Made by a program: the position numbers
Assembly (NCBI RefSeq): GCF_964194025.1
Contig: NC_134472.1
Coordinates: 67,208,001-67,272,000 of the forward strand
Origin: Convolutriloba macropyga
Taxonomy: Eukaryota
DNA: 64,000 bases
Direction: 5' to 3'
In this document: positions 9,001 to 12,000 of the stretch, piece by piece
How positions within the stretch are numbered: position 1 is the first letter of the stretch
How the letters are laid out: each line of letters opens with the position of its first letter

Positions 9001-12000
9001 AAAAATATTTACGATCAAAAAATGAATAATTTATATTTTATAATTGTTTTTTACTGTAACTCTTCTTTAATTATTAAAAATTTATGATGTATTTATAATA
9101 TTTAAAGAAAATTTATAAGAAAGAATTTATTTCGCTAATGCGAGGACAAATTACGAGGTCCTGAGACCTTCTGTTTCAAAATGCCCATATACACACAACG
9201 GTATTCAAACTCACACAGCAAAAAACAAATTTCACTAACTCATTATTACTGACTAAATACGAGCTTTTCAATTTGTGACAAAAATCAGATATAATTTTAG
9301 TAGAACCGTTTTCTTCAAAAGGTTGTAATAATTTCCAACTCTTTCAGTTTGTTAAACAGAATTGCAGACCTATATCTTACAGAATCTTTGTGTTTTCTTT
9401 TTGCCAGAGCTAAGACTTAAAAACCCTTCTCTTTGGCGTCTAGCTGCCACTTTTGATTCTTCATACTTCAGCATATCATTGCAGTACTTTTCGCTGCGTA
9501 AATTATTAACTGATTTTAGAGAAAACTTGAGAAGCCACCTCTACGAGCTTCAAGTTTTCTCTAAAATCAGTTAATAATTTACACAGCGAAAAGTACTGCA
9601 ATGATATGCTGAAATACGAAGAATCAAAAAGGGCAACTAGACGCCAAAGTTCAAATACAGTGAGGATCCCAATTTGAATAAATAGAGGAATCATGCCTTT
9701 TGCGAAAATAGATGAAATAAGAAAATTTCTAGATGACATAAGAAAAAATAATTATAAACCTATAATTTAGTTATTTTTTGAAACTTGAATATTTTTTAAT
9801 ATTTTGTCTAGGGTATCGGTTCTCTAGACTAGACAATAGAAAACGTACTTATATGAATTAATAAATTATTTAAATAACTAAATGAATCAATCAAAATTAT
9901 TGTCATCAAAATACTCGTTATTATTGTTATCTTCATCCTCTGACAAAAAATAAACATTTTCAAACTCCGATTCAAAACAATTTTGCTGATGATAAACTTG
10001 CACAATAATTTCTCTTGATTTATATTTTGCACCAAAATGAAACTGCAGAGAGAAAATTCCAGGAAACACTGGAAGAATGTGAATATTTTCAGTCCATTCG
10101 GAAATTTGTTCATCGCTCAACTTAGATACATTAAATTGTTGTTCAGAACTTCCAAGAACAATAGGAGCTCGTTTATACATTTCAGCATCAATCTCTTGCG
10201 CTATTCGAGCTTTAGGCTCGACGGCAATTTTGAACAGAAAATCCTGTTCACCACTAACCAATAAATTGGTTAAATTACAGTTCACCTCCAAGTGAATGAC
10301 TTGACCGGAATGACATTTGATTACCCAATCTTCAACGTCCGCGCCTGAATTGGCTCCAATCACAACCGGTATTACATAATTTAAGCAAATAAAAGATTTT
10401 GAATCATTTGTACCGCTAAATAAATGGTTTGGCAAGTAAATACTTCCTCCTTCCAAACTTTCATCATTTTTAGAGCACCAAATCAAACTAAGTTTTCCAA
10501 GAAAACAACGGAGAAAACTGTTAGATGTCGATTGTGTTTTGTTTATAGCACCAGCTTTGTTATCCTTTTGCTCCATCGTCTGAAACTGATGCGGTTCAAA
10601 TTTCTCCAACAGAAATATGGCACGCTTTAGACTTCTTGGTTTGACCTCACAAAACGAGTCTCTGACTTGAACCAAAACCTCGAACTCTGTCAGATTTCTG
10701 AATGTCAAACATAAGTTAAAGTTTTCAGGTCTGTTTGCAGGCAGAAAATTGACGCTATCTACCAGTACAGAAGGCTGGACTCTCATTTTCAAGGAAAAAA
10801 AAGGAATGGTCAGTCCATGTATGGACAACTTGACAAAAGATAAGAATTCGGAAGATTCTAACAATCCCCACTTGTCCAAATCCACTTTCGAAGCGTCCAA
10901 ACAAAAACTAACTTCACAAATTTCACCCTTAGATAGGGTTTCCTTTTCTTGAACTACTGCAAACATGTCATGGTATTTAGAAATTGTGGTCAATTCGAAT
11001 TTTTCAATATCATGCAGCGCACTAAGACATACATTAACACATTTAGTCGTTCCGTAATACAAGCTTTGCAGAATAACACTGTCTTTTGTAACAAACTCTT
11101 TCACGCCAGCATGCTCCGAAAGTTGCGAATTTACTTCGACCGAAGGTTCCAGAGATCCCGTTGCCTTCGAAGGAAACCAGAAGCATTCCAAATAAGGAAT
11201 ATTGAATGAATGCCTGGTGATGAATTTAGAATTTTTGTTGAACAAGACCTCACTCGTGTAGTTCATTTCTTTCCAGTGAACTTTGTATCCTTCAATTGAG
11301 ATGTCTCCCGGTTCTAACTGTGTTACTAAAACAGTCCAACGCTTAGTTCGTACACGATCTCTAATATCTGCTTTTTAACTAATAACATATCTAAAGACAC
11401 TTAAAAAACAAGATTTGGCATCATTCAATATGAGCCAAAAAACAATATTAGCTAATTATTTGCACATAATTGATACAATATGCAGCGCCAGTGACGTTAG
11501 TAATGACAAACGATTGCTAAAGATTTGAGAAAAAAAATTATAAAAAATGAGGCTCAAACCGGATAGCGATAGATAATTGGACCTTCTCTCAGTCTAATAA
11601 TAAAAAAATATAAATTGTATTGGAGGGGAGCCTTTTATTAAGAGCTATTCTAACATGTTCGTAAACTCGGTCGTCATTTGCGGTCAAAGTAGAGAGAGCT
11701 AATTAAAGCGTCAAGCTTAATTCCTAAAAGTAACGAAAAGCTAGTAGTTTCGAAGAGTAATTTTTTTATAAAAGCTTTTAAAGTGGAGTGCGAAAATTAT
11801 GTTTGAGCAAAATTTTTTGATAATTCTTTCATGTGCGTTAGAGCATCTACTATTTTTAACATTCTGTATCCTGGAATTTTTCTTTCACCTATAATTGCTT
11901 TGAAAAGGTGATCCGAATTTCCTAAGTTGAATAGTTGCATTTTGGAATTTCTGAAAGGTCACCTATTTGCTTATAAGAAAAAGGTGATATTTTTCAAAAA

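What the first reader, a model, noticed from the sequence alone, without database searches (positions are those of the whole stretch)
9431..9649. 100-bp-arm hairpin downstream of TRAPPC9 with strand-biased G-U wobble mismatches
The arms differ at 6 positions. Five are C/A or A/C oppositions on the plus strand, which become G-U wobble pairs in a minus-strand RNA, and none is G-U on the plus strand. The minus strand is the TRAPPC9 sense strand, and the hairpin starts ~240 nt after the stop codon. This suggests selection on a long dsRNA stem (3'UTR element, hpRNA/endo-siRNA or miRNA precursor, ADAR/Staufen substrate) rather than neutral decay. The sample is small: 5/5 has about a 1/32 chance.
Basis: partly seen in the sequence, partly recalled or inferred. 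Interest (0 to 1): 0.65.

Follow-up and report, generated by a model that had tools for sequence, protein, structure and literature searches.

The report
Long hairpin repeat downstream of TRAPPC9
A real 219-base inverted repeat sits just after a membrane-traffic gene and would fold into a long double-stranded RNA if read together with that gene, but the hint that evolution has protected the fold rests on only six differences.

Summary
Arms 9431-9530 and 9550-9649 are complementary at 94 of 100 positions around a 19-nt spacer. Five of the 6 mismatches are A.C on the plus strand, which are G.U on the minus strand; one is A.G and none is G.T. The minus-strand RNA folds at -166.8 kcal/mol and the plus-strand RNA at -149.1. 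The window's own repeats give 196 transitions to 193 transversions and 18 A.C to 18 G.T. Against that null the pattern has p of about 0.005 for one strand and 0.01 for either strand, or 0.016 and 0.03 if the two adjacent mismatches count as one event.

The window holds no second copy, no target-site duplication above chance and no Rfam family. The hairpin starts 237 nt after the stop of the ORF that most likely ends TRAPPC9. Only an upstream exon matches the TRAPPC9 family, and poly(A) hexamers lie on both sides of the hairpin.

Best reading, at about 0.4: a young local inverted duplication co-transcribed in a long TRAPPC9 3'UTR, forming hpRNA-like dsRNA. A neutral by-product is almost as likely. 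Transcription, genomic copy number and orthologues could not be checked.

The parts
9431..9530 (-). Left arm on the plus strand; 3' arm of the minus-strand RNA hairpin
   Evidence: 100 nt, 94 of 100 positions complementary to 9550-9649.
9531..9549 (-). 19-nt spacer, the terminal loop
9550..9649 (-). Right arm on the plus strand; 5' arm of the minus-strand RNA hairpin
9887..11266 (-). 459-aa ORF whose stop codon (9887-9889) lies 237 nt before the hairpin; inferred last coding exon of TRAPPC9. The frame stays open upstream to 11374.
   Evidence: No Pfam or PDB match. The assignment rests on strand, order and length: about 480 profile positions are left after the upstream exon.
14549..15910 (-). 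TRAPPC9 exon, the only piece with a family-level match
   Evidence: PF08626 TRAPPC9-Trs120, E 1.4e-08, 33.1 bits against a cut-off of 24.7, profile positions 533-749 of 1229.
9795..9800 (-). ATTAAA hexamer on the minus strand, 86 nt after the stop and before the hairpin (short-UTR option)
   Evidence: This is a motif match only.
9126..9131 (-). AATAAA hexamer on the minus strand, 299 nt beyond the hairpin (long-UTR option that would include it)
   Evidence: This is a motif match only. By hand arithmetic about 0.8 such hexamers are expected by chance in the interval.
8430..8891 (-). Decayed, rearranged partial duplicate of the 459-aa ORF. It shows that this gene's 3' flank has a history of local duplication.
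   Evidence: 73-85% DNA identity, three main pieces; 20 of 31 residues identical.

Best explanation
The hairpin is a young inverted duplication, with arms about 6% apart, that arose locally in the 3' flank of TRAPPC9. It is not a dispersed transposon copy. The proposed mechanism is as follows. RNA polymerase II reading TRAPPC9 on the minus strand runs through it, either as a long 3'UTR isoform ending after the AATAAA at 9126-9131 or as read-through. The RNA then folds into a stem of 99 pairs (94 Watson-Crick and 5 G.U, with one U.C mismatch) and a 19-nt loop. A duplex of that length is a default substrate for the double-stranded-RNA machinery: Dicer would make endo-siRNAs in the manner of an hpRNA, and ADAR and dsRNA-binding proteins could act on it. 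It would therefore mark or destabilise the long isoform, or give rise to small RNAs. Changes that kept pairing on that strand were tolerated and others were lost.

Shown here: the repeat, its sharp ends, the fold, the strand asymmetry of the mismatches and its position relative to the ORFs. Inferred: the transcription, the processing, any selection, and that the ORF ending at 9887 belongs to TRAPPC9.
For: Structure: the arms are complementary at 94 of 100 positions and 0 of 200 shuffles fold as well.

Strand asymmetry: 5 of 6 mismatches are wobbles on the minus strand and 0 of 6 on the plus strand. The minus strand folds 17.7 kcal/mol better.

Null from the same window: 196 transitions to 193 transversions among 389 mismatches in 13 repeat pairs, and 61:57 in the five youngest pairs. 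Transition-type oppositions in three other inverted pairs are 18 A.C to 18 G.T. This gives P(at least 5 of 6) = 0.0048 for one strand and 0.0096 for either strand. CpG observed/expected is 0.87-0.95, so CpG decay does not inflate transitions. The older foldback 11852-12184 in the same transcription unit has 9 A.C to 7 G.T and folds equally on both strands.

Position: the hairpin is on the same strand as, and 237 nt after, the stop of the ORF that follows the TRAPPC9 exon. An AATAAA lies beyond the hairpin.

Local origin: there is no second copy in 64 kb, by a 30-mer with up to 3 mismatches, by the terminal 18-mer and by BLAST. There is no target-site duplication above chance: the best is 3 bp, and 1626 of 3000 random position pairs reach 3 bp or more. 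Duplicated exon fragments lie next to it.

Precedent: in passages of PMC10317233, de novo hpRNAs arise inside pre-existing transcription units, including a 3' UTR. In passages of PMC1892782, G.U pairs that become A.C on the complement are the strongest cue to the strand on which a structured RNA is read.
Against: There are only six mismatches. Positions 9449 and 9450 are adjacent, and if they count as one non-wobble event the figures become 0.016 and 0.031. With a transition share of 0.67-0.75 the either-strand figure rises to 0.036-0.061. Fisher's test against the controls gives 0.056. The pattern was picked out after looking, in a scan of many windows, so about 1% of neutral young hairpins would show it.

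Selection strong enough to purge single mismatches from a 100-bp stem is not expected for a Dicer or ADAR substrate. There is no transcript evidence of any kind. An ATTAAA 86 nt after the stop could end the mRNA before the hairpin. No sequence in the window is a plausible siRNA target; the best hits outside the hairpin have E 0.018 and cover 41-57 nt at 70-78% identity. The last ORF has no TRAPPC9 signature.
Confidence: 0.4

Rival explanations
1. The hairpin is a neutral by-product: an inverted duplication made by a replication or repair template switch. It has no RNA role, and the mismatch pattern is chance.
For: The sample is small and post hoc. Conditional on transitions, 5 of 5 is only 0.0625 two-sided, and Fisher's test against the controls gives 0.056. 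The flank has other local duplications, and a second foldback 2.2 kb away shows no bias. No family, no target and no transcript evidence was found. Template switching at replication forks as a source of inverted duplications appears in the listing abstract of PMC10766183.
Against: Against the window's own substitution spectrum, the pattern has p of about 0.005-0.03, and the favoured strand is the sense strand of the adjacent gene.
Confidence: 0.35
2. The hairpin is a copy of a palindromic miniature inverted-repeat transposable element (MITE) or foldback element that happened to land behind TRAPPC9.
For: It is 219 bp, non-coding, an inverted repeat over its whole length, and has sharp ends. Nearly palindromic MITEs that fold into stable RNA hairpins are known, such as Made1 (abstract of PMC1784062). 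The sub-threshold Rfam matches are to long-hairpin MIR families; that those families are MITE-derived is recalled and comes from no call.
Against: No target-site duplication exceeds chance. The window holds no second copy of the arm or of its terminal 18 nt. No transposase gene was found among the ORFs scanned. The source genome could not be searched, so copy number is unknown.
Confidence: 0.12
3. The bias is real but mutational. C-to-T or A-to-G changes are favoured on the minus strand, through transcription-associated deamination of the non-template strand or asymmetric repair of an extruded DNA hairpin, and there is no selection on RNA.
For: Across the window the plus strand has A > T (22123 against 19359) and C > G (12267 against 10251), which is the direction such a bias would produce. 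Both kinds of change would give minus-strand G.T.
Against: The three control inverted pairs give 18:18, and the intronic foldback in the same gene gives 9:7. The bias would also have to suppress transversions, which are 1 of 6 here against about half elsewhere.
Confidence: 0.08
4. The hairpin is a canonical microRNA precursor.
For: It is a stable hairpin. Sub-threshold Rfam matches to miRNA families were found; the best is MIR8007 at 79.5 bits against a gathering score of 195. Long miRNA hairpins do occur in invertebrates (abstract and introduction of PMC12553114).
Against: None of the 4227 Rfam families reaches its threshold. All 15 matches found at E up to 10 are below threshold, and they fit on both strands as any long stem would. 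Canonical stems are about 33 bp (PMC12553114 introduction). This stem is 100 bp and near-perfect, which suits a Dicer siRNA substrate more than Drosha processing.
Confidence: 0.03
5. The hairpin is an assembly artefact, a fold-back chimera.
For: One mismatch pair sits at the edge of a T run, a context prone to sequencing error.
Against: It is small, lies inside a continuous 64-kb stretch with no N, and its arms differ at six places, mostly by clean substitutions.
Confidence: 0.02

Closest known systems
Drosophila hairpin RNA (hpRNA) loci, especially young ones born inside existing transcription units, such as Dsim-hp88 in the 3' UTR of CR43306 (PMC10317233, passages read)
   Same: Both are long near-perfect inverted repeats with a short loop. 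Both are lineage-young, lie in the 3' part of an existing transcription unit, and sit next to other local duplications.
   Different: hpRNAs are defined by Dicer-2-dependent siRNAs of about 21 nt, by a primary transcript that rises in dcr-2 mutants, and by arms homologous to a target gene. None of these could be shown here, and no target homology exists within the window. The catalogue of hpRNA arm lengths is in a supplement I could not open, so the size comparison is open.
Palindromic MITEs that fold into RNA hairpins, such as Made1/mir-548 (PMC1784062, abstract read)
   Same: Both are short, non-coding and inverted repeats over nearly their whole length, and both form a very stable RNA hairpin when transcribed within a host gene.
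   Different: Made1 has 37-bp arms and many genomic paralogues. This element has 100-bp arms, no target-site duplication above chance and no second copy in 64 kb.
Inverted-repeat elements in 3' UTRs that form dsRNA bound or edited by ADAR and Staufen (inverted Alu pairs in mammals; recalled, no paper read)
   Same: Both would form an intramolecular duplex tens to hundreds of bp long in a 3' UTR on the sense strand.
   Different: Those are pairs of dispersed repeats hundreds of nt apart. This is a single tight foldback with a 19-nt loop, and its membership of the 3' UTR is unproven.
Long miRNA hairpins of invertebrates (PMC12553114, abstract and introduction read)
   Same: Both are extended, highly paired stems in an invertebrate-like genome.
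   Different: Those are elongations of conserved miRNA genes with a defined miRNA/star duplex. This hairpin matches no family at threshold.

Membership tests
hpRNA (endo-siRNA hairpin locus) | Long inverted repeat giving an extended intramolecular duplex | tested here: met
   The minus-strand fold pairs 99 of 100 stem positions at -166.8 kcal/mol.
hpRNA (endo-siRNA hairpin locus) | Dicer-dependent small RNAs of about 21 nt from the duplex, and a primary transcript with defined ends | not testable with these tools
   No expression data are held. The criterion is taken from PMC10317233.
hpRNA (endo-siRNA hairpin locus) | Arms homologous to a target gene | tested here: inconclusive
   No homology was found inside the 64-kb window; the best hits outside the hairpin have E 0.018. 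The arm ORFs match no Pfam family above cut-off. The rest of the genome could not be searched.
MITE / foldback transposon | Terminal inverted repeats, small size, no coding capacity | tested here: met
MITE / foldback transposon | Target-site duplication flanking the repeat | tested here: not met
   The best flanking direct repeat within +/-3 nt is 3 bp (TTC). Of 3000 random position pairs, 1626 do as well.
MITE / foldback transposon | Multiple dispersed copies | tested here: inconclusive
   There are 0 further copies in the window and 0 exact 30-mer matches in the prokaryote genome collection. No eukaryote genome collection was open.
Canonical animal miRNA precursor | Stem of about 33 bp with a terminal loop, and membership of a described family | tested here: not met
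   The stem is 100 bp. None of 4227 Rfam families matches at gathering score, and all 15 weaker matches are below threshold. The stem-length criterion is from PMC12553114.
3' UTR element of TRAPPC9 | Lies on the sense strand downstream of the gene's stop codon | tested here: inconclusive
   The hairpin lies 237 nt after the stop of ORF 9887-11266 on the same strand as the Pfam-supported TRAPPC9 exon. That ORF itself has no TRAPPC9 match.
3' UTR element of TRAPPC9 | Lies upstream of the poly(A) site in use | not testable with these tools
   Only hexamers can be read. ATTAAA lies before the hairpin and AATAAA beyond it, both at chance frequency.
TRAPPC9/Trs120 (the host gene) | Match to PF08626 above its curated cut-off | tested here: met
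   Exon 14549-15910 scores 33.1 bits against a cut-off of 24.7. The exons were searched one by one and were not joined.

The most novel reading that the evidence does not exclude
The hairpin is a newly born, single-copy hpRNA-like element that is already under purifying selection for pairing on the sense strand of a housekeeping trafficking gene's 3' UTR. In that case the long TRAPPC9 isoform carries a 100-bp dsRNA that couples its fate to Dicer or ADAR activity, or yields siRNAs against an unlinked target. This would catch the birth of a regulatory hairpin at about 6% arm divergence.
Probability: 0.2. Interest if true: 0.55.

Novelty: new member of a known kind. Interest (0 to 1): 0.3.

Why it matters
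If the fold is kept by selection, this would be an early stage in the birth of a hairpin-RNA locus inside a conserved gene's 3' UTR. Such stages have been documented almost only in Drosophila testis. It would also illustrate that the wobble asymmetry between the arms of a single young hairpin can point to the transcribed strand without any alignment. If the fold is not selected, this is an ordinary local palindrome, and it serves as a caution: about 1 in 100 neutral young hairpins will show the same pattern.

Tried and rejected
(1) Other copies in the window. A 30-mer with up to 3 mismatches, the terminal 18-mer, self-BLAST and word-7 BLAST found only the two arms.

(2) A possible third, decayed copy. 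9258-9297 resembles the loop plus the inner right arm, but its score is reached by 2 of 200 shuffles, so I kept it only as a note.

(3) Target-site duplication. Nothing above chance was found.

(4) Known RNA families. There were 0 matches at gathering score. The sub-threshold hits are structure-only matches to long hairpins, including a Wolbachia sRNA model at 43.5 bits against 65.3. An exact 30-mer scan of the prokaryote genomes also found 0.

(5) Coding origin of the arms. The arm ORFs give only Prp19 at E 0.012, below its cut-off.

(6) Background mutational asymmetry. I rejected it as the main cause because the controls give 18:18.

(7) CpG decay as the source of the transitions. CpG observed/expected is 0.87-0.95, although two of the five transition sites are CpG/TpG differences.

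(8) Clustering of mismatches towards the hairpin base. The mean position is 31.5 of 100, with one-sided p 0.054, which is not significant.

(9) TRAPPC9 identity of the last ORF. Pfam at E up to 10, also on the ORF extended upstream, and the PDB sequence search gave nothing.

(10) Literature. One search for TRAPPC9 with 'hairpin' and 'inverted repeat' found one paper holding all three terms, a review of circular RNAs judged irrelevant from its title and abstract. I found nothing in print on a TRAPPC9-linked hairpin in that single search.

(11) I did not build a perfect ancestral hairpin for an energy simulation. The binomial tests take its place.
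Full report
1. What is there

The window is 64,000 bases long, has no N and is 35% G+C. I do not take it for human. It is AT-rich and compact, and it carries a 453-aa TRAPPC9 exon with no close PDB relative. At the reported place, the repeat finder, a script and MAFFT agree. The arms are 9431-9530 and 9550-9649, each 100 nt, 94 of 100 positions are complementary, and the spacer is 19 nt. The six mismatched oppositions on the plus strand are C/A at 9444/9636, A/G at 9449/9631, C/A at 9450/9630, A/C at 9463/9617, C/A at 9466/9614 and C/A at 9497/9583. 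Five of the six are therefore G.U on the minus strand and none is G.U on the plus strand. Pairing ends abruptly: only 1 of the next 10 oppositions outward is complementary.

As RNA the minus strand folds at -166.8 kcal/mol, with every stem position paired except one U.C. The plus strand folds at -149.1 kcal/mol. On either strand 0 of 200 shuffles fold as well. As DNA the plus strand folds at -99.8 kcal/mol.

2. Is the strand bias more than chance?

I then took the null from the window itself.

- Strand symmetry. Three other inverted pairs give A.C:G.T on the plus strand of 9:7, 5:9 and 4:2. Together that is 18:18 among 75 mismatches, so there is no background strand asymmetry.
- Transition share. 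I used 13 of the 44 self-BLAST pairs: the inverted controls and the longer or more similar direct repeats. I dropped the hairpin itself and 30 shorter or weaker rows. Two members are used twice. These 13 pairs give 196 transitions to 193 transversions. The five youngest pairs give 61:57.
- CpG decay. CpG is barely depleted, with observed/expected 0.87 for the window and 0.94-0.95 around the hairpin.

Each neutral mismatch therefore has about a 0.25 chance of being a wobble on a given strand. That makes P(at least 5 of 6) 0.0048 for one strand and 0.0096 for either strand.

Several caveats apply.

- 9449 and 9450 are adjacent and border a T run, so they may be one complex event. Counted that way, 4 of 5 gives 0.016 and 0.031.
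- A transition share of 0.67-0.75 would give 0.036-0.061 for either strand.
- Fisher's test of 5:0 against 18:18 gives 0.056.
- The pattern was noticed after looking, in a scan of many windows.

A useful contrast is the older foldback at 11852-12184, which lies in the gap between the two coding ORFs of the same gene. It has 9 A.C to 7 G.T, and its two strands fold at -145.4 and -143.4 kcal/mol. The signal is specific to this hairpin and is nominally significant, but it is fragile.

3. Surroundings

On the minus strand, ORF 14549-15910 matches Pfam TRAPPC9-Trs120 at E 1.4e-08 and 33.1 bits against a cut-off of 24.7, over profile positions 533-749 of 1229. The next long minus-strand ORF is 9887-11266 (459 aa), and its frame stays open upstream to 11374. 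It has about the length of the remaining 480 or so profile positions and ends in an acidic tail. It matches no Pfam family even at E up to 10 and no PDB chain beyond a chance hit. I searched these ORFs one by one and left the joined model out. That this ORF ends TRAPPC9 is therefore an inference from strand, order and length.

The hairpin begins 237 nt after this ORF's stop codon. It lies 1416 nt before the ATG of the next minus-strand ORF, 6437-8014, which is 525 aa, rich in P, Q and N, and without any family. Minus-strand poly(A) hexamers lie on both sides: ATTAAA at 9795-9800 and AATAAA at 9126-9131. By hand arithmetic this DNA, which is 69% A+T, should hold about 0.8 AATAAA by chance in the interval, so the hexamers decide nothing.

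Beyond the hairpin lie decayed fragments of the 459-aa ORF. 8430-8556 and 8810-8891 copy 10726-10959, and the 253 bp between them hold a copy of 10252-10297. DNA identity is 73-85%, and 20 of 31 residues are identical at the protein level. This 3' flank has therefore been reshaped by local duplication.

4. Origin

Within the window there is no second copy of the arm, of its terminal 18 nt or of any part of it above noise. No direct repeat flanks the element beyond 3 bp, and 1626 of 3000 random position pairs reach that length. No transposase was found among the ORFs scanned. The arm ORFs have no domain. Rfam gives nothing at threshold. The 15 weaker matches are generic fits of long-hairpin models on both strands, the best at 79.5 bits against a gathering score of 195. 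One exact 30-mer scan of the prokaryote genome collection found 0, which argues against a bacterial insert and says nothing more.

A local inverted duplication fits these facts better than a transposon insertion. Copy number in the source genome, which is the key test, could not be obtained.

5. Mechanism

My preferred reading has confidence of about 0.4. The duplication lies inside a long TRAPPC9 3' UTR or read-through transcript. The sense RNA folds into a duplex of about 100 bp. Such a duplex is by default a substrate for Dicer, giving hpRNA-like endo-siRNAs, and for ADAR and dsRNA-binding proteins. Changes that kept pairing on that strand persisted.

Precedents come from papers I read in part. 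De novo hpRNAs use pre-existing transcription units, including a 3' UTR (PMC10317233, passages). G.U pairs whose complement is A.C are the main cue to the reading strand of a structured RNA (PMC1892782, passages). The reading has a weak point: Dicer and ADAR substrates tolerate isolated mismatches, so strong per-site selection is not expected.

The rivals are as follows.

- Neutral palindrome with a chance pattern: 0.35.
- Palindromic MITE (compare Made1, abstract of PMC1784062): 0.12.
- Strand-asymmetric mutation or repair: 0.08. The window's A > T and C > G skew points the right way, but the controls do not.
- Canonical miRNA: 0.03. Canonical stems are about 33 bp (PMC12553114 introduction).
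- Assembly artefact: 0.02.

6. Comparison and novelty

The hairpin works most like a young hpRNA or a 3'-UTR inverted repeat. Membership of the hpRNA class cannot be claimed, because small RNAs, the primary transcript and the target are untested. The MITE class fails its target-site-duplication test. The miRNA class fails on stem length and family match. If real, this is a new member of a known kind. In one literature search I found nothing on a TRAPPC9-linked hairpin.

7. Verdict

Interest is 0.3.

The window's virus-like stretch, a copia-type LTR element remnant at 40307-45741, is unrelated to the finding. It is described only, under the things noticed in passing.

Noticed in passing
window 11852-12184: A second, older foldback lies between the two coding ORFs of the same gene. 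Its arms are about 165 nt and about 77-81% alike. It has 9 A.C to 7 G.T mismatches, and its two strands fold equally, at -145.4 and -143.4 kcal/mol. A third, inverted copy of its outer arm lies at 12834-12891 (72% complementary). It is unrelated in sequence to the finding's hairpin.
   Followed up: partly
window 8430-8891: A decayed, rearranged partial duplicate of the 459-aa ORF. 8430-8556 and 8810-8891 copy 10726-10959, and the 253 bp between them hold a copy of 10252-10297.
   Followed up: partly
window 40307-45741: The virus-like stretch is a copia-type LTR retrotransposon remnant on the minus strand. Its LTRs are 40307-40674 and 45362-45741, with 90% identity counting gaps and 19 mismatches in 365 aligned columns. 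Matches to a gag zinc knuckle, the Pol beta-barrel, integrase (rve) and reverse transcriptase (RVT_2), in the copia order, lie in four separate short ORFs spread over three reading frames, and the longest ORF is 177 aa. The gag-pol gene is therefore broken by at least two frame changes and at least one stop. These are lower bounds and I did not count exactly. A 38-80-bp tandem array lies inside the element. Described only.
   Followed up: partly
window 54964-55401 (minus strand): An exon of a mitochondrial ribosomal protein L2 (uL2m) gene. It matches Pfam Ribosomal_L2_C at E 2.7e-19, and 7 PDB mitoribosome chains match, the best at E 1.6e-22.
   Followed up: partly
window 6437-8014 (minus strand): A 525-aa ORF rich in P, Q and N, in a stretch of 44% G+C against 31-36% around it. 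It has no Pfam or PDB match. It is the next gene downstream of the hairpin on the same strand.
   Followed up: partly
window 57695-59281 and 62002-64000; also 19823-21878, 16459-17836, 36995-38100 and 23410-24541: Families of dispersed and tandem repeats at 70-91% identity, including a 62-64-bp tandem unit at 58848-58979 and 63568-63696. Some of them served as neutral controls for the substitution spectrum.
   Followed up: no
window 9258-9297: A weak direct similarity (41 columns, 78%) to the loop plus the inner right arm of the hairpin (9542-9580). Its score is reached by 2 of 200 shuffles. It may be a trace of the sequence from which the duplication arose, or it may be chance.
   Followed up: partly
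whole window: The plus strand has A > T (22123 against 19359) and C > G (12267 against 10251) across nearly all 2-kb bins. This fits the fact that most recognisable genes lie on the minus strand.
   Followed up: no
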